Positions 130 through 63,998 of a DNA stretch of 64,000 bases are shown here, one piece after another; position 1 is the stretch's first letter; each line of letters starts with the position of its first letter. The translations under genes were made by a program, and so were the position numbers. The stretch comes from Octopus vulgaris (taxonomy: Eukaryota): the NCBI GenBank assembly GCA_951406725.2, contig OX597825.1:6076001-6140000 (forward strand). The letters run 5' to 3'. The notes below the pieces were generated by a model, which had not been told where the DNA came from, ran no database searches, and worked only from the letters and a program-made list of their open reading frames with translations.

Positions 130-1824
130 GTTTGGCTCAACCAGCGTGAGTTTCTCTACATTTCCATGACTTAGCAGTTTGGCAAAAAAGAAACTGATAG
201 AATATGTATCAGATTTGAAACAAGAACTGGAGCAGTGGCACCATGATCGAAATCCAAAGACTGAAACGAACAGAAGCATAAAAGAATATGAGACTCTGTC
301 GGGAAAAGTTAGTTCCATCCACAATCTTGCTTGGATTCACCTGTTCTCGGTGTTTAGACGTGGCGACGCTATTAAGAAATTAACTTCTTGACCAGATGGT
401 CTCAGGTTCGGTTCTACTAAGGAGGTGAGCTGGCAGAATTGTTAGCACGCCGGACGAAATGCTCAGCTGTATTTCGTCTGCCGTTGCGTTCTGAGTTCAA
501 ATTTTGCCGAGGTCGACTTTGCCTTTCATCCTTTCGGGGTCGATAAATTAAGTACCAGTTACGCACTGGGGTCGATTTTAGCCCCTTGTGGGCAGTAAAG
601 AAATAGGTTCAGTTCTACTGCACAGTATTTTAAGCAAGTGTCTCCAACAGTATTCCTGCATTAACCTAGAGTAATTTAAGTCAATCTGGAAGACAGAAAC
701 TGTATGAAGCCTATTGTGTGTGTGTGTGTTCAATCATCGTTGTCGTTGTCATTATCATCATAACCATTTAATGTTTGTCTTCTATGCTAGATGGGTTGAA
801 ACAGTTTGACAGCATCCCACTCCAATGCCTGCTTTGGTATGATTTCTGTGGCTGGATATTCGGGACTAATGCAGTTTCGCACCTCTCCTCGAAAAATGCA
901 TTTTTTTCGAAAAGATATTTTTCAGATTCCTGTTTTACATGTCGGAGATTACAAATATACAAAAAAAAAATTTTTTTCGTGTGGATTTAATTTCGATTTA
1001 ATTACGATTTGCATATGTTAGTCAGTTCACTATGATCTCTTTAAAGTAAACAAAATCAAAATTTTTAGGTGGGGGTAAAATTTTGAAAATTTCTTTTTTT
1101 GCATATTCGCTTGTAATCTACAATATCTAAAACGTAAGAATCAGAAAATTTTTTTTTTTTTAAAGTGCATTTTTCAAGGAGAGGTGGGTTGTCAACTAAA
1201 GGTGACGCTCTTATAGAAGACTGTGTTGCTGTTGTTTTTAGCCCCAGGAAGACATTCAGGTCTATCTCTTTATACACCTATCTATATATTGAATTTAAAA
1301 TTTAGAAAACTTGGATTCTTGCATATCTGGAATCTCCATCATCTAAAACACAGCGGAAAAAATATTTCGAAAAAGTTCTAAATTTCAGGGTGGGGGTTGG
1401 AGGGGAGTTGAATTTTTTTTTTTTTTTTCATATTCATAATCTCTAACATCTAACGTAGGAATCTGCAAACAAAAATTTTCAAAAAAATGCATTTTTCAAA
1501 GAGGTGCAAAGCTGCATTAGCCCCGGATATTCTTTCCGACTTTACAGAAGGTAATGGATACTTGTTTTTTATTTTTTTTTTTTCATAGTACCATCACTGG
1601 TGAAGTTTCCAAGTAACTTGGAAGACAAGGAAAAAGTCCCTTTAATTGAGTAGAACTGTGGTAAAGAAAGAGTTCACTTTATGCTACATGTCGAGAGGGA
1701 CAGCCACATGGACATCCAGTTGTAAAAAGCATGCCAAAACATACATGAAAATATATCTGGAAATGAGGAAAAATTATCTCTATTGGAAACAGGTGAGTGA
1801 GTGTAAATGACAGGAAAGGTATCT

Positions 1825-2425: not shown

Positions 2426-9162
<6,737 letters not shown>

Positions 9163-14549: not shown

Positions 14550-16423
14550 CACGAAGGGCTTCTTTCAGTTTTCGTCTACCAAATCCACTCACAGCTATAG
14601 TAGAAGACACCTGCCCGAGGTGCCACGCAGTGGGACTGACTCCGGAACCGTGTGGTTTGGAAGCAAGCTTCTCACCACACAGCCTCCACAAAAACATATC
14701 AGGCCGTCGGGAAATACTACCTTGCTTGAAAATAAATGAAGGTTGATGACAGGAACAACATGTGACTTAGAAAATCTTCCTCAATAAATTCCGTCTGATC
14801 CATGCAAGCAAGTAAAAAAGAAGACATTAAAATGATGATGATGATGATGACGGCAGCATAAAATGGTAGATGTATATATATGCAGGCATGGCTGTGTGGT
14901 TAAGGAGCTTGCTTCCTAGCTACATGGTTTCGGGTTCAGTCCCACTGCGTGGCACTTTGGGTAGGTGTCTTCCACTATAGCCCCGAGATGACCGGAGCTT
15001 TGTGATTGAATTCGGTAGGTGGAAGTTACTGCCGTGTGTGTATGTGTGCGTATAGCTGCTCAGTGCCTCTCCGAAAGAGAGAGAGAGAGGGATATATATA
15101 TATATATATATATATGTTTGACTCAACCAGCGTGAGTTTCTCTACATTTCCATGACTTAGCAGTTTGGCAAAAAAGAAACAGATAGAATATGTATCAGAT
15201 TTGAAACAAGAAACTGGAGCAGTGGCACCATGATCAAAATCCAAAGACTGAAACGTACAGAAGCATAAAAGAATATGAGACTTTGTCGGGGAAAAGTTAG
15301 TTCCATCAACAATCTTGCTTGGATTCACCTGTTCTCAGTGTTTAGACGTGGCGACGCTATTAAGAAATTAACTTCTCAACCAGATGGTCTCAGGTTCGGT
15401 TCTACTAAGGAGGTGAGCTGGCAGAATTGTTAGCACGCCGGACGAAATGCTTAGCCGTATTTCGTCTGCCGTTACGTTCTGAGTTCAAATTTTGCCGAGG
15501 TCGACTTTGCCTTTCATCCTTTCGGGGTCGATAAATTAAGTACCAGTTACGCACTGGGGTCGATTTTAGCCCCTTGTGGGCAGTAAAGAAATAGGTTCAG
15601 TTCTACTGCACAGTATTTTAAGCAAGTGTATCCAACAGTATTCCTGCATTAACGTAGAGTAATTTAAGTCAATCTGGAAGACAGAAACTGTATGAAGCCT
15701 ATTGTATGTGTGTGTTGAATCATCGTTGTCGTTGTCATTATCATCATAACCATTTAATGTTTGTCTTCTATGCTAGATGGGTTGAAACAGTTTGACAGGA
15801 TCCAAAGAAGAGCTGGAGGACAGCATCCCACTCCAATGCCTGCTTTGGTATGATTTCTGTGGCTGGATATTCGGGACTAATGCAGTTTCGCACCTCTCCT
15901 CGAAAAATGCATTTTTTTCGAAAAGATATTTTTCAGATTCCTGTTTTACATGTCGGAGATTACAAACATGCAAAAAACCCCAAAAATGTTTTTGTCTGGA
16001 TTTAATTTCGATTTGCATATGTTAGTCAGTTCACTATGATCTCTTTAAAGTAAACAAAATTAAAATTTTTAGGGGGGGGGGTAAAATTTTGAAAATTTCT
16101 TTTTTTGCATATTCGTTTGTAATCTACAATATCTAAAACGTAAGAGTCAGAAAAATTTTTCAAGGAGAGGTGGGTTGTCATCTAAAGGCGACGCTCCTAT
16201 AGAAGACTGTGTTGCTGTTGTTTTTAGCCCCAGGAAGACATTCATGTCTATCTCTTTATACACCTATCTATATGCATATTGAATTTAAAATTAAGAAAAC
16301 TTGGTTTCTTGCATATCTGGAATCTCCGTCATCTAAAACACAGCGGAAAAAAAATTTCAAAAGAGTTCTAAATTTCAGGGTGGGGGTTGGAGGGGAGTTG
16401 AATTTTTTTTAAGGCGGCAGGCG

Positions 16424-16461
16424 GCAGCTGGCGCCTGGTAATACTAAGAGGCGGCAGCTGC
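16424..16461 (-). promoter_or_regulatory. Rolling-circle replication origin stem-loop with nonamer TAGTATTAC
   Basis: Plus-strand arms GCAGCTGGCGCCT (16424-16436) and AGGCGGCAGCTGC (16449-16461) pair at 12 of 13 positions. The 12-nt loop reads CTTAGTATTACC on the minus strand (nonamer at 16446-16438). GGCGGCAG repeats start at 16413, 16420 and 16450. Confidence 0.9.
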
Positions 16462-16754
16462 TGCTGATTATTGCCTGCCGTGCCTTATAAAAGTGTTGAC
16501 TGCAACAGTATTCACTTAGTCTACTGACTACTACCGATATGTCACATACTGCTTAAACTTGACAAATACGAGAGTGTCGAATCCGAATAAAATTTTATTA
16601 ATCTAAAATACATTTGTTTGTTATTATTGCATGTCCTTTTTCATCCTGCACGTTTTATGTATACTAAAAACCCCAAAACATTCGCATCTTCGTCACGTCG
16701 CGCGACGTTTACTCAATCACTCATCCTTCTGCAGTGTTTTCTTTCAGGGTCTAG

Positions 16755-17320
16755 TCAATCTTTGTATTTACTTCCATTACGGCGACCGTAGCAGCGTATA
16801 ACAACAAAGTTGGTATAATCCATGACTGTATCTTTAGATGACTGAACAACCATTGATATACCGTTGTAAGAATGCATTGGAAATGCTTTGTCTGGCACAG
16901 TACCGAAAGGAGCTTCAGCCATATCCCATTTCTGTAATCCTGGCATAATCATGGTGGGATAAGGCATAGTATCATTCGGATCGTAACTTTTATCATCGGT
17001 GCGCCAAGTCCAACGCGGAGCGAAGGATAGTTTCAGTCTACGTCTACCTGACATGACTGCTACGCGTGTTGTTTGCACCATCTTTATATTATCTATATCC
17101 ATGTGTCTACCGGAGAGATCAGGATCGTAAGTATAAAATACTTTAGGTATGAATTTTCCTGGTTTCTGTTGCTGTGGTAGCTCGATGATAGTACCGAAAC
17201 GAACTATTGAGAAACTGTCAAACTGTGTACGTAGCAAATCACCTTGGTAAGCTGGTATAAGGGTGTTTAAATTAGCCCAAGTACATGACAGACTTTGTGA
17301 CTGATCTTCATTAGCAGTTA
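16755..17320 (-). CDS. Putative CRESS/circovirus-like jelly-roll capsid protein, 5'-truncated (~188 codons, no internal stops)
   Basis: The frame is open from the insertion junction: ITANEDQSQSLSCTWANLNTLIPAYQGDLLRTQFDSFSIVRFGTIIELP...PKVFYTYDPD...RLKLSFAPRW...YTNFVVIRCYGRR..*. The spacing FDxFxI / P / YDxD / KxxFxP / C-terminal beta-strand resembles circovirus-like capsids. Called by motif recognition plus the adjacent origin; no search was run. Confidence 0.65.
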
Positions 17321-18341
17321 TTTTTTTTTTTCATATTCATAATCTCTGACATCTAAAACGTAGGAATCTGTAAAAAAAAACTTTTCAAAAAAATGCATTT
17401 TTCAAAGAGAGGTGCAAAGCTGCATTAGCCCCGGATATTCTTTCTGACTTTACAGAAGGTTCAGGATACTTGTTTTTTATTTTTTTTTTTTCATAGTACC
17501 ATCACTGGTGAAGTTTCCAAGTAACTTGGAAGACAAGGAAAAAGTCCCTTTGATTGAGTTCAACTGTGGTAAAGAAAGAGTTCACTTTATGCTACATGTT
17601 GAGAGGGACAGCCACATGGACATCCAGTTGTAAAAACCATGCCAAAACATACATGAAAATATATCTGGAAATGAGGAAAAATTATCTCTATTGGAAACAG
17701 GTGAGTGAGTGTAAATGACAGGAAAGGTATCTCATCATCATCATCATCGTTTAACGTCCATTTTCCATGCTAACACGGGTTGGACGGTTCGACCGGTGTC
17801 GGGAAGCTGGGAGGCTGCACCCACCAGGCTCCAGTCTGATCTGGCAGTGTTTCTACAGTGGGATGCCCTTCCTAACGCCAACCACTCCGTGAGTGTAGTG
17901 GGTGCTTTTTACGTGCCAGGGGAGGCTGGCAGTGGCCATGATCGGTTGGTGCTTTTTACGTGCCACCAGCACGGAGGCCAGTCAAGGCGGAGCTTGCAGC
18001 GGCCACGTTCGGATGGATCTTTTATGTGCCACCAACACTGGTATCACAACTGCAATTTCCATTGATTTTTGATCTGCTTCAACAAATTCTGTGTCACCCA
18101 TCGAAGCATGGAAAAGTAAATGCCAAAATGATGATGATGATGATGAAGATGATGATGAAATAGAAGAAAATGTGAAAAGCAGAAAACATTTAGTTTGATG
18201 TTCAATGAAGCATTTATAAAAAGTCTCAATGGATAATTTTAATATGGAATAATTTCCTTGCATATAATATCAATTTTAGTCATAAACAAAATGATTTTTG
18301 CTTTTGTTTTTTGGTGTTTTTTCTACATGTCCAGAAGAATC

Positions 18342-19471
18342 TCAGAAACTTGGTTGTCTAATGGCACTCTTTGCATAAGCATTGGCACAAACTTTTAGTG
18401 AAACACACGTTATCTTCCAGTTGTTTTCCGACGAAGGATCCCTGAGCAAAGCAAACTTCTGTTCGAAAACTCCCAAGACATGATCCCCTTTGTGAACCGT
18501 ACCGTGAACCAGAACACACACAATACCAACACTCTCAACTTCACTCGTAACACCACCACCAGTGATGTTGGCATTGAAATACAAGTTCTCTTCGCTCACT
18601 AATCTTTTTAGTCTACATGCGACCAGATCAGCACCCTCTGTCCTTTCTTCGTTTCTCACTTCAGATATCAACAGTAAATGTAAGGAACATTGGGGCCAAA
18701 ACTGATCTTTCAAACCAGATTCAGTTCGTGAGTTAAACATTTTATAAAACCAAGATGCAAATGTTTCGCCAAATTGTTTCAAATCACCAGAAGAAAGAAG
18801 GCGGGTTTCTGGTTCTGCCTAGAAATAAAAACAAAAAGAGAAATGTCAAATAGCGTATATAGAGAAGAGGATAAGATACAGGGTGTATAGACTGGATAAG
18901 ACAGTGCATATAGTCAGAGTGAGTCAGTATATAGGATGAGACTATATATATGCGTGTGTGTGTGTGTGTGTGTGGAGGCACAATGGCCCAGTGGTTAAGG
19001 CAGTGGACTCGCGGTTGTAGGATCGCAGTTTCGATTCCCAGACCACGTACTGTGAGTGTTTATTGAGCGAAAACACCTAAAAGCTCCACAAGGCTCCAGC
19101 AGGGGGGGGGGCGATCCCTGCTGTACTCTTTCGCCGCAACTTTCTCTCACACTTTCTTCTGTTGGCCTCCTCGCTTAGCCAGCAGGGTGGCATCATTTGA
19201 AGGCTAAAACAATGCAAAGCGCATTGTGACCAGCAATGTGTAGCAACATCTGATAGCCCGGTCGGTCACGGTGATCACGGTTATACATATATAAATTGCT
19301 AGTCCCCTCTGGAATGGTTGGCATTAGGAAGGGTATCCAGCTGTAGAAACATAGCCAGATCAGATTGGAGTTTGATGCAGCCTCCTGGCTTCCCAAACCC
19401 CAGTCGAACCGTCCAACCCATGCCAACATGGAAAACGGACATTAAACGATGATGATATATATATATGTGTA

Positions 19472-32724: not shown

Positions 32725-33992
32725 TTGGGTTGTCCGGAAAGTTCGTGCCGATTTATAGTAGCTTACCTTTCGACTTATTTTAGAACAAGTTTGAGTCCAT
32801 AAAATAGGATTTGACTACACCTCCATTTAGGGCACAGTTTAAGCTATCTTTTCGTGGAAGATGGTTTATGTTCCTATAAACTGTGTTAATTCTGTAACCC
32901 TTTAAAATGGAAGATAAGAAAGTTCATTTTCGGCATTTGATGCTTTTCTTTTTCCGTAAAGGGAAAAATGCCTCACAAGCAACCAAAGAAATATGCGCAG
33001 TTTACGGTGATGTTTCTTTATCCGGAAGAACTGTACGGAAGTGGTTTGCAAGGTTCCGAGCTGGAGATTGTAGCCTTATTGATAAAGAGCGATCAGGCAG
33101 ACCATCCACTACAGATGATGACCAAATCAAGTCATTAATTGAGAATAACCCACATTGCACAAACCGAGAATTGGCAGAAAGCCTCAACCTAACAAAATCC
33201 GTCGTTCATGAGCACCTGGTAAAGCTTGGGTACACAAATCACTATGATGTTTGGGTAGCACATGAGTTGAGTGAGAAGAACCTTTTGAATCACATTTCCA
33301 TCTGTGATTTGCTTTATAAATGGAATGAAACCACGCCTTTTTTTAATGCAAATTGTGACAGGTGATGAGAAATGAATTATCTACTAAAATGTTCAGAGAA
33401 AGCGATCCTGGAGTAAGCGACATGAACCGCCCTTAGCCACCCCAAAAGCGTGTCTTCATCCTAAAAATGTCTTGCTTTGTGTCTGGTGGGATTGGAAAGG
33501 AATTCTGTACTATGAGCTTCTCCCAAGTAACCAGACAATTAATTCTAAGAAATACTGCACACAATTGGACGAGTTAAAAGCAGCAATTCAAGAGAAACGT
33601 CCAGAATTGGCCAACAGGGTGTTGTTTTCCAACATGATAATGCAAGACCGCACGTTTCTTTGGGAACCAGACAAAATTTGCTGCAGCTCGGCTGGGATGT
33701 GTTATCCCACCCTCCATATTCACTTCGGATTTCCACTTATTCAGGTCTCTGCAGAATAGTCTTAATAGTAAAAATTTCAATTCCTTGGATGACGTAAAAA
33801 GATACCTTGATGAATTCTTTGCCATGAAACCACCTCAATTCTGGGAAGAGGGTATTTTCAAGTTAAAGGAAAGATGGATACGCATTGTGCAACAAAATGG
33901 TTCATATTTGGTTGATTAAAAATGTAATGGTAAGTATTTATTGACCTCTTCCTTTCCTTTAAAAATCGGCACGAACTTTCCAGACAACCCAA
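32725..33992 (+). mobile_element. Full-length Tc1/mariner element with a disrupted transposase
   Basis: 30-bp TIRs TTGGGTTGTCCGGAAAGTTCGTGCCGATTT (32725-32754) and 33963-33992, with TA on both sides. The ORF from 32907 (MEDKKVHFRHLMLFFFRKGKNA...WFARFRAGD...RSGRP...WVAHEL...TGDE...LLCVWWDWKGILYYELL...HDNARPH) is broken by frameshifts, stops and a deletion in the YSPDLAP motif. Confidence 0.95.
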
Positions 33993-45622: not shown

Positions 45623-46100
45623 GAGGGTGAGTCAAAAAGTAATGCCATTTTGTTTAGGACAGGTATAATTACCAACACATACATCAAAATGTATCATACA
45701 TCAAAATGAAGCTGGTCCTCCATGGAACACGTCCCTACTTCTCAACATAGTCACCATTTCTCTCAATAGCAACGTTCCACCTTCGAATGAGAGCATGTAT
45801 CCCTGCCCCGTAAAATTCTGTTGACTGTTCTTTGAGCCACTTCTTCACTACAGTTTTTCACTTCCTCCTCACTGGAATAATGTTTGCCTCTCAAACCCTC
45901 TTTCATGGCACCAAAGAGATGATAGTCTGAAGGCGCTAAATCTATTGAGTGTGGAAATTATGAAGAAGTGGCTCAAAGAACAGTCAACAGTATTTTACAA
46001 GGCAGGGATACATGCTCTCATTTGAAGGTGGAACATTGCTATTGAGAGAAACGGTGACTATGTTGAGAAGTAGGGATGTGATCCACAGAGGACCAGCTTC
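45623..46100. mobile_element. Mariner-derived remnant with an internal inverted duplication
   Basis: Starts TA-CGAGGGTGAGTCAAAAAGT (TIR-like). 45707-45860 is inverted relative to 45950-46102. Confidence 0.55.
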
Positions 46101-46900
46101 ATGAAGGTGTCCAGGAACCTTGTCACATCCTCCCTCACCTTTTCAGTGTCATCAGAACATCTGCTCCTGAGATTGTCCTTCAGCCTAGGGAACAACCAAA
46201 AGTCACAGGGAGCAAGGTCTGGACTGAAGGGTGAGTGAGGGACAGTTTTGATGCCCAACTCTGTTGAGTTTTTGGTTACCAGGATGGAATTGTGAACTTG
46301 TGCATTGTCCTGGTGTAGGTGCCACTGAGCCAAGTGGCTGAGCTCTGGTCTATTGCTACGGAATCTGTTCCCAAACTCCTTCAAAACCTCCACAAAGTAT
46401 TCTTTGTTGACCATCTGGCCAGAGGGAACCCAGTGGATGTAGATGCTGCCTTTGCTGCAGAAAAAGGGGATTATCACAAGGTCCCTGATGGACTTGCTTT
46501 GCTTAACCTTCTCGGGTCTGGGGGGAGCCAGGATGCTTCCATTCAGCACAAAGGTCACTAGAGATCCAAGTACTCTTCTATTGGAGGTAATGAGTGTAAC
46601 CATCTCTTTGCTGTCACCAACACATCTTCTGTTCGTCACCAAGCTCCCCGGAAACGAACTCTGCACAAATTTTGCCCATGTTCAGATCTTCGTAAATATT
46701 TCTGCACACGGTTACCACACCGACACCAAACTGATGTTTATTGTCTTTTTAGACACACGACAGCCTCATCCAGAAAATTGCAAATTTTCTCAGCCAGCTC
46801 TAACGTTCTGGTACCCTTCTTTTTCCCATATCTCTCACCTCTTCTCTGTCATCTTTGAACCTTTTGTGCCAGTGAAAAACAAATGCTCAGCTCATCCACA
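46058..46900 (-). mobile_element. Mariner transposase fragment (catalytic region)
   Basis: HWVPSGQMVNKEYFVEVLKEF...WHLHQDNAQVH...PHSPFSPDLAPCDFWLFPRLKDNL. Confidence 0.85.

Positions 46901-54019: not shown

Positions 54020-63998
<9,979 letters not shown>

What the first reader, a model, noticed from the sequence alone, without database searches (positions are those of the whole stretch)
16411..17320. Recent endogenous CRESS-DNA virus element (TAGTATTAC origin plus intact capsid-like ORF) in one copy of a tandem duplication
Seen in sequence: a 910-bp block with no counterpart in the paralogous copy, whose empty site is T16 at 1413-1428. The block carries a 13-bp stem / 12-nt loop with TAGTATTAC, and an ORF open for ~188 codons from the junction to the stop at 16755. 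Established knowledge: TAGTATTAC in a stem-loop is the HUH-Rep nicking site of circoviruses, cycloviruses and nanoviruses. Inference: this is a germline fossil of a probably undescribed ssDNA virus of a cephalopod-like host. It most simply integrated after the duplication, and recently, since the ORF has no stops or frameshifts.
Basis: partly seen in the sequence, partly recalled or inferred. Interest (0 to 1): 0.92.

Follow-up and report, generated by a model that had tools for sequence, protein, structure and literature searches.

The report
Broken DNA-virus fossil in octopus genome
A 910-base piece of an undescribed small circular DNA virus sits in the octopus germline behind one of four copies of a host gene, and host RNA appears to run into it and stop at the virus's own end-of-message signal.

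Summary
The block is a real germline CRESS-DNA virus element, but it is neither intact nor just 'origin plus capsid'. The ORF folds as a circovirus-like jelly-roll capsid but lacks its first ~55 codons and its start. The block also holds the last 11 codons of rep and probably its first five, so almost all of rep is deleted. The site is a T-run inside a dispersed host repeat. It is empty in the three other tandem DUF4518 copies and in 35 dispersed repeat copies. Nine studies besides the possible source hold the block. It is at most ~5-8 My old; the open frame dates it only weakly. Junctions are not at the nick site, which favours capture at a DNA break. In two studies, RNA-like contigs stop 12 nt after the viral AATAAA, and one crosses from host into virus. 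This is a weak hint that a host transcript ends at the viral poly(A) signal. Twelve further CRESS-like loci, and a Rep-like protein in O. bimaculoides, point to an octopus-infecting lineage. My searches found no report of one. Verdict: a new member of a known kind.

The parts
16411..17320 (.). Endogenous CRESS-DNA virus element, whole insert
   Evidence: Absent from 3 of 3 other tandem copies; one copy of the whole block among 5 matches in the genome; CpG o/e 1.01 against 0.52-0.76 in the flanks
16424..16461 (-). Origin stem-loop, 13-bp stem with one mismatch, 12-nt loop; nonamer TAGTATTAC at 16446-16438, on the cap-sense strand
   Evidence: homologous origins at C31 (81.5% over 65 nt) and C15 (0 of 300 shuffles each)
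16465..16554 (+). Probable rep promoter and leader (TATAAAA at 16486), and first five rep codons from ATG 16539 (MSHTA)
   Evidence: Inferred. Co-linear with the leader and MPHTP start of a Viral_Rep locus on C14 (8 of 2000 shuffles, 15 of 710 host 90-mers score as high). No significant match to the C15 leader.
16554..16555 (.). Internal deletion point removing nearly all of rep
   Evidence: DNA similarity to the C11 element starts exactly at 16555, inside the rep C-terminus
16555..16590 (+). Last 11 codons and stop of rep, with a rep-sense AATAAA at 16586-16591
   Evidence: 10 of 11 residues identical to the end of O. bimaculoides Rep-like protein P0027; DNA alignment to the C11 rep end
16582..16599 (-). 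Cap-sense poly(A) signal AATAAA (16599-16594) and the place (16582) where RNA-like contigs of two studies stop
   Evidence: weak hint, contigs only
16591..16754 (.). Intergenic region between the converging rep and cap ends, strongly conserved with the C11 element; contains a 14-nt palindrome
   Evidence: 82.7% over 185 nt, although cap synonymous sites are saturated (pS 0.86)
16755..17320 (-). 5'-truncated capsid gene, 188 codons plus stop; no start codon; first in-frame Met at residue 77 of P0001
   Evidence: AF2 pLDDT 84; circovirus capsids are the top structural matches
16403..16410 (+). Left host T-run (T8)
   Evidence: a DNA contig of an independent study crosses it with 30 host letters
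17321..17331 (+). Right host T-run (T11)
   Evidence: bridged by a contig of study P3 with 440 host letters and 0 differences
15867..17438 (.). Host dispersed repeat with inverted ends (MITE-like, inferred), interrupted by the insert
   Evidence: Inverted arms; 604 candidates in the genome, 40 scored, 38 continuous across the site
18342..18819 (-). Last coding exon of the host DUF4518 (C3orf38-like) paralog whose stop lies 1,021 nt upstream of the insert
   Evidence: PF15008 E=1.9e-38; RNA-like contigs of 3 of 3 runs leave the DNA at 18819
18213..18218 (-). Proximal poly(A) signal position: TATAAA here, AATAAA in the other 3 copies; an ATTAAA remains at 18243-18238
1413..1428 (+). Empty site (T16) in the neighbouring paralog

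Best explanation
The block is a fragment of an ambisense CRESS-DNA virus that infected octopus germ cells. Its cap lay on the nonamer strand, a cyclovirus-like layout. SHOWN: it carries the origin, a capsid gene without its N-terminal ~55 codons, the convergent intergenic region and the rep C-terminal end. It sits in a host T-run in one of four tandem DUF4518 copies, and it is present across independent samples. INFERRED: the five codons after the leader are the rep start, so rep is internally deleted, most likely before or during capture (~0.7). INFERRED: the DNA was captured by end-joining at a break in the A/T run, not by Rep nick-joining (~0.85). INFERRED: insertion happened after this copy split from its siblings, at most ~5-8 My ago. 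The element cannot replicate by itself and probably makes no protein. INFERRED (~0.55): its one present effect is that a minority of transcripts from the upstream DUF4518 copy read through it and end at the viral cap poly(A) signal.
For: Fold: top PDB match is bat circovirus capsid (E 4.3e-5). The two circovirus capsids tie at Z 9.6 (rmsd 3.4/3.2, 153/144 aligned) over 7.4 for the next rows. Top BFVD match is a CRESS capsid from grass shrimp (E 1.5e-12, TM 0.75). Atlas top 3 clusters are Cressdnaviricota. Gene order: the 83%-identical cap at C11 converges on an SF3-helicase Rep (PF00910 over cut-off). Empty state is ancestral. The block ends 29 nt past the nick position (nick site recalled), and both junctions are A/T runs. 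Held by 9 studies besides the possible source. Contigs of studies P3 and P5 stop at 16582; the DNA run continues; intron and origin bins are at zero depth in 3 of 3 RNA-like runs. No RNA-guess run exceeds a word share of 0.81, and 0.806 is expected for an RNA ending at 16582.
Against: P0001 has no Pfam hit and no PDB sequence hit. Only 5 of 21 distant relatives hit Circo_capsid, all under the cut-off. ESM recognition is 2116, under the 2300 mark. The rep-start assignment is modest and failed against the C15 leader. The left junction is crossed by 30 host letters, one short of the tool's bridging rule. No run is on record as RNA. Contigs give no strand. No listed contig links the DUF4518 exon to the insert, because a high-copy repeat at ~17730-18070 lies between. 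Three DNA-guess runs also have shares of only 0.62-0.75. No free, complete relative was found.
Confidence: 0.8

Rival explanations
1. A longer viral genome integrated, and rep was deleted later in the host germline.
For: The C15 element also lacks part of rep (tblastn covers residues 11-26 and 84-317 of P0029). An active nickase beside its own origin could be selected against (inference).
Against: The element is young and otherwise almost undamaged: 2 private changes in 104 conserved capsid columns. The one independent DNA run laid shows the same join (contig 16381-16706, 1 difference).
Confidence: 0.27
2. The RNA over the element is real but starts in the neighbouring host repeats, or is an unrelated non-coding transcript, not DUF4518 read-through.
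For: The bridging contig ends at 17760 inside a repeat, and one run has a bin without cover at 17516-17616. This copy still has ATTAAA at 18238 and AATAAA at 17476 upstream.
Against: The cap is co-oriented with the gene. One RNA-like contig carrying this copy's letters runs from the exon past both proximal signals to 18167. Only this copy lacks the proximal AATAAA.
Confidence: 0.35
3. The parent molecule was a natural capsid-only segment or satellite of about 1.1 kb (nanovirus-like), not a broken monopartite genome.
For: It has an origin and one gene; the C31 pair also has an origin and cap with no rep match.
Against: The rep C-terminal codons and stop are present. Relatives at C11 and C15 carry rep and cap together.
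Confidence: 0.08
4. Rep-catalysed integration at the origin.
For: One junction is close to the origin.
Against: It lies 29 nt from the nick position, and the host side is a T-run, not a nonamer-like site.
Confidence: 0.06
5. Assembly chimera or contaminating virus.
For: The left junction is only marginally bridged. A close capsid sits in a record labelled Erwinia amylovora, so such DNA can travel as a contaminant (inference).
Against: Near-identical sequence in 9 other studies; right junction bridged without differences.
Confidence: 0.02
6. A domesticated capsid gene that makes a functional protein.
For: The frame is open and apparently transcribed.
Against: No start codon. The nearest host ATG is out of frame and stops after 7 codons. 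Openness is expected at this age.
Confidence: 0.04

Closest known systems
Endogenous CRESS-DNA elements of molluscs and other invertebrates (Dennis et al. 2018, PMC6069186)
   Same: Germline CRESS-derived sequence in a mollusc with retained coding capacity.
   Different: All new elements in that screen were rep-derived. O. bimaculoides was in its species list, but Table 1 lists no cephalopod. This one is cap + origin with rep deleted, and has RNA evidence.
Circoviridae: bat circovirus (6rpk/6rpl) and BFDV (5j09) capsids; genus Cyclovirus layout
   Same: Single jelly-roll capsid, Arg-rich arm in relatives, TAGTATTAC stem-loop, ambisense genes. Cap on the nonamer strand is the mirror-image layout.
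   Different: 10-12% capsid identity. A Rep of this group (P0029) matches PCV2 Rep only over residues 7-111. The C15 relative has the opposite polarity.
Unclassified marine-invertebrate CRESS viruses (Palaemonetes grass-shrimp and Littorina associated circular viruses)
   Same: Best structural matches, TM 0.73-0.75.
   Different: Only 15-24% identity; the window's capsid falls in a separate 12-member clade (100/99; these named capsids were not in the tree).
Octopus Rep-like predicted proteins XP_014788809.1 (O. bimaculoides) and CAI9733846.1 (O. vulgaris)
   Same: Same Rep lineage; the window keeps the matching C-terminal 11 residues.
   Different: They are gene predictions in databases; no paper describing them was found.
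Defective or subgenomic DNAs of ssDNA viruses (recalled; only a search listing seen)
   Same: Origin kept, coding region deleted, roughly half genome size (inferred).
   Different: Known as free circles; circularity cannot be shown here.

Membership tests
CRESS-DNA virus endogenous element | Nonanucleotide origin in a stem-loop | tested here: met
CRESS-DNA virus endogenous element | Single jelly-roll capsid related to CRESS capsids | tested here: met
CRESS-DNA virus endogenous element | Rep with HUH nuclease and SF3 helicase | tested here: inconclusive
   Only the ends of rep remain in the block. Sister loci carry the helicase (PF00910) and the nuclease (PF02407).
CRESS-DNA virus endogenous element | Flanked by host DNA and heritable | tested here: met
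CRESS-DNA virus endogenous element | Circular ssDNA genome of the parent virus | not testable with these tools
   No free relative found. The C15 element has two origins 2,144 nt apart, consistent with a circle.
Circoviridae (Cyclovirus/Circovirus) | Ambisense rep and cap around the origin | tested here: met
   Converging gene ends; cap on the nonamer strand
Circoviridae (Cyclovirus/Circovirus) | Capsid reaches the Pfam Circo_capsid cut-off | tested here: not met
   No hit for P0001; 5 of 21 distant relatives hit below the cut-off
Circoviridae (Cyclovirus/Circovirus) | Rep groups with Circoviridae Reps | tested here: inconclusive
   No reference Reps in the tree. P0029 matches full-length PCV2 Rep in one stretch only, the nuclease domain, which leans against membership.
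Circoviridae (Cyclovirus/Circovirus) | Genome-wide identity over 55% to members (PMC6186406) | not testable with these tools
   No complete parent genome is available
Nanoviridae-like segment | One gene per component, rep on a separate component (recalled) | tested here: not met
   Rep C-terminal codons are on the same molecule; relatives are two-gene

The most novel reading that the evidence does not exclude
Octopuses host their own undescribed CRESS-DNA lineage, which has entered the germline repeatedly in at least two Octopus species and has used both genome polarities. Here a rep-less defective molecule was fixed behind a fast-evolving DUF4518 paralog, and its viral poly(A) signal now serves as an alternative 3' end for that gene, whose own proximal AATAAA has decayed. 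That would be exaptation of a CRESS regulatory signal rather than of a protein.
Probability: 0.3. Interest if true: 0.75.

Novelty: new member of a known kind. Interest (0 to 1): 0.55.

Why it matters
Germline elements are the best evidence of which animal a metagenomic CRESS virus really infects. This locus and its sisters tie a capsid clade that Pfam misses to octopuses, a group for which my searches found no CRESS element in print. They supply both cap and rep probes for looking for the living virus in farmed and wild animals. Cap-bearing invertebrate elements were absent from the main published screen. If the RNA hint holds, it is also a simple, testable case of a ssDNA-virus poly(A) signal shaping a host transcript.

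Tried and rejected
Searches that found nothing: Pfam and PDB sequence searches with the ORF or its profile. No relative in IMG/VR, JGI metagenomes or GTDB genomes by protein or DNA pattern. Rfam gave 3 matches, all far below gathering scores. Earlier findings of this scan: none. The intergenic palindrome shows no stable fold (z=-0.3). One search was an uninformative pattern.

Tests that did not discriminate: The nonamer alone is at chance level. No RNA holder is on record; 'RNA' is the tool's guess, supported here only by the exon edge at 18819. Contig depths were not used to rank expression or copy number. The open frame was rejected as a clock. The octopus Rep fragments are not one clade (5 changes; 0% of bootstrap trees with 1); five of nine group with one environmental row at 92/94, unstarred. 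The pN/pS rows with copy B were misaligned and dropped; one search is used instead. Nine of 18 matches were dropped as host GPCR sequence read antisense, and two more rows are one locus.

Mechanisms considered and rejected: Retrotransposition of a viral mRNA, because the insert runs past the cap poly(A) signal through the origin. Precise loss from the other copies, because dispersed repeat copies are also empty.

Literature searches, open-access library only: searches gave 0 papers. Searches gave 5, 2 and 1 listings, none on cephalopod CRESS elements by title and abstract start. One supplementary file of PMC6069186 could not be searched, and subscription papers may report these elements.

Full report
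OBSERVATION. The block 16411-17320 has no counterpart in the neighbouring duplicate. The empty site is T16 and the filled site is T8 + insert + T11. The stem has 12 of 13 pairs and a 12-nt loop with TAGTATTAC on the minus strand; the hairpin beats 200 of 200 shuffles. The nonamer by itself is expected about once per window. With its stem context it is found three times in the genome, all in CRESS elements. The minus-strand frame is open for 188 codons from the junction.

THE ORF IS A CAPSID, BUT TRUNCATED. Pfam and PDB sequence searches found nothing. A profile search gave 22 proteins. Five of the 21 then scanned hit Circo_capsid below the cut-off. The AlphaFold model (pLDDT 84, pTM 0.76) is a beta-sandwich. 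Its best solved match is bat circovirus capsid (E 4.3e-5). The wide search puts bat circovirus and BFDV capsids first at Z 9.6, with the next rows at 7.4. Predicted viral structures give CRESS capsids from shrimp and periwinkle first (E 1.5e-12, TM 0.75). The closest relative with an N-terminus, P0003 (79%), has ~55 more residues including the Arg-rich arm. The window's frame has no start: its first Met is residue 77, and the host ATG next to the junction is out of frame.

REP IS PRESENT ONLY AS ITS ENDS. The genome holds six cap matches among 10 candidates scored. At C11 an 83%-identical cap converges on an SF3-helicase Rep. DNA similarity to that locus starts exactly at 16555, inside the rep end. 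Bases 16555-16587 encode 11 residues, 10 of them identical to the end of an O. bimaculoides Rep-like protein. Between the origin and that point lie a TATAAAA and an ATG giving MSHTA. Two other Rep loci start MPHTP. The leader aligns co-linearly with the C14 one (8 of 2000 shuffles; 15 of 710 host controls) but not with the C15 one. The layout on the + strand is therefore: origin, rep leader and start (inferred), deletion, rep end, intergenic region, cap end, truncated cap. Cap is on the nonamer strand. The C31 elements share this polarity and have the most similar origin; the C15 element has the opposite one.

HOST AND SITE. The C15 Rep remnant matches a database protein named for Octopus vulgaris, so the host is an octopus. 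The insert lies 1,021 nt past the stop of a DUF4518 gene, co-oriented with cap. There are four tandem copies; the other three are empty (T20, T10, T16). The T-run belongs to a dispersed repeat. Of 40 scored matches, 38 run continuously across the site (35 dispersed, 3 tandem); the other two are the halves of the filled copy. Empty is thus ancestral. The block ends 29 nt beyond the nick position (TAGTATT^AC, recalled), and both junctions are A/T runs. This fits end-joining at a break better than Rep nick-joining or retrotransposition. A target-site duplication cannot be read in a homopolymer.

AGE. Site patterns favour ((A,D),(B,C)). The filled copy B has 27 private sites of 2,408, and its K2P distance to C is 3.9%. 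At 2.4e-9 per site per year (PMC7656900, passages read; estimated for another octopus) the upper bound is about 5-8 My, and gene conversion could blur it. At 1.8% divergence the frame would stay open with probability 0.21-0.46, so openness adds little. Two private changes in 104 conserved capsid columns and CpG o/e 1.01 agree with a young element without narrowing the bound.

GERMLINE AND RNA. Twenty of 24 listed runs hold at least half of the sampled words. They come from 10 studies, 9 without the possible source. I laid 4 of the 20. In X4 a contig covers 16582-17760 with no difference, bridging the right junction. X4 and X6, from two studies, both stop at 16582, 12 nt after the minus-strand AATAAA; X6 has one unlaid letter beyond it. 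X20 covers only 16719-17219. All three RNA-like runs have zero depth over the origin bin and the intron bin, and leave the DNA at the exon edge 18819, which argues for spliced RNA. The 12 RNA-guess holders of organism A have shares of 0.72-0.81, against 0.806 expected for an RNA ending at 16582. Three DNA-guess runs are also low, at 0.62-0.75. Only this copy has TATAAA where the other three have a proximal AATAAA, though ATTAAA and a further AATAAA remain upstream of the insert. No listed contig links exon and insert, and strand is unknown. Read-through to the viral signal is therefore a hint (~0.55), not a result.

LINEAGE. Counting cap matches, Rep-helicase matches after dropping 9 GPCR-antisense rows and merging one pair, and one nuclease match, the genome has 13 CRESS-like loci. 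Two of them are one duplicated insertion, and counts are lower bounds. All six genomic capsids fall with six database proteins in one clade (100/99); five of those six are unnamed, and several are truncated. The Rep fragments are not monophyletic. A related Rep matches PCV2 Rep only in the nuclease domain. Chimeric Reps are common in unclassified CRESS viruses (PMC5923481, passages read). No free complete relative was found.

COMPARISON WITH WHAT IS KNOWN. Dennis et al. 2018 (PMC6069186; section 6, passages and 4 supplementary files) report CRESS elements in bivalves and gastropods. All their new elements are rep-derived; O. bimaculoides was screened but is not in Table 1. Rosario et al. 2018 (PMC6186406; passages and 2 supplements) describe the cyclovirus mirror layout, TAGTATTAC origins and an endogenous capsid fragment in a nematode; no octopus terms occur in its supplements. 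PMC9973303 (passages) describes nonamer-in-hairpin origins. Six targeted searches found no cephalopod CRESS element, but the library omits subscription journals. The element works like a cyclovirus-layout CRESS fragment. Membership of Circoviridae is not shown and is doubtful.

VERDICT. A real endogenous CRESS-DNA element (~0.95). It is 5'-truncated in cap and deleted in rep, at most a few million years old, and apparently transcribed. It is a new member of a known kind in a host group where I found none reported. Interest 0.55; it would rise to about 0.75 if the viral poly(A) signal is shown to end the host gene's mRNA.

Noticed in passing
G000:C15:38111800-38114120 (L010, L032): CRESS element longer than one unit: two TAGTATTAC origins 2,144 nt apart with ~165-175 nt terminal redundancy (89.7% identical). 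Rep is on the nonamer strand, opposite to the window. Rep is internally deleted and frameshifted; cap has an internal stop.
   Followed up: partly
G000:C11:25610227-25611670 (L007): Closest sister element: partial cap (83% identical) plus open Rep helicase half, inserted just before the start of a rhodopsin-family GPCR reading frame in an apparent GPCR cluster.
   Followed up: partly
G000:C31:3477500-3478350 and C31:6461350-6462150 (L009, L008): Origin-plus-cap elements with a degenerate nonamer and frameshifted cap start; the two are segmental duplicates including flanks (94.8% over 3.3 kb).
   Followed up: partly
G000:C14:64337823-64338134 (L050:1477-1788): Open Rep nuclease domain (PF02407 E 5e-23) followed by sequence weakly like an IS1595/ISXO2 transposase (E 0.014, under cut-off).
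   Followed up: partly
G000 C3, C30, C1 (two), C17, C15, C6: Further Rep-helicase or cap fragments, several with stops; the weakest are 37-44% identical and less certain.
   Followed up: no
window 2426-2866 and 18342-18819; G000:C12:6049412-6063722: Four tandem DUF4518/C3orf38-like copies. The last exon diverges faster than the introns (8.2% against 3-4%; pN 0.081, pS 0.042 on 27 and 4 differences). One copy has an in-frame TAG, and the C-termini differ. Possible positive selection or relaxation.
   Followed up: partly
P0002 (WP_400166885.1): A 77%-identical capsid on a 2,467-nt contig labelled Erwinia amylovora, probably a contaminant; it could be a free relative.
   Followed up: partly
window 16632-16727: Non-coding stretch nearly identical between the window and the C11 element despite saturated synonymous sites; possibly a complementary-strand origin or terminator element.
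   Followed up: partly
run X20 (organism B): A run labelled as a different organism holds 513 letters of the capsid remnant with 1 difference, so the insert may be shared with a sister species, or the label differs.
   Followed up: no
window 32898-33759, 46058-46681, 58285-58668: Mariner-type transposase remnants (HTH_48 at 32898; the second by motif only) and a DZF_N-domain exon.
   Followed up: no
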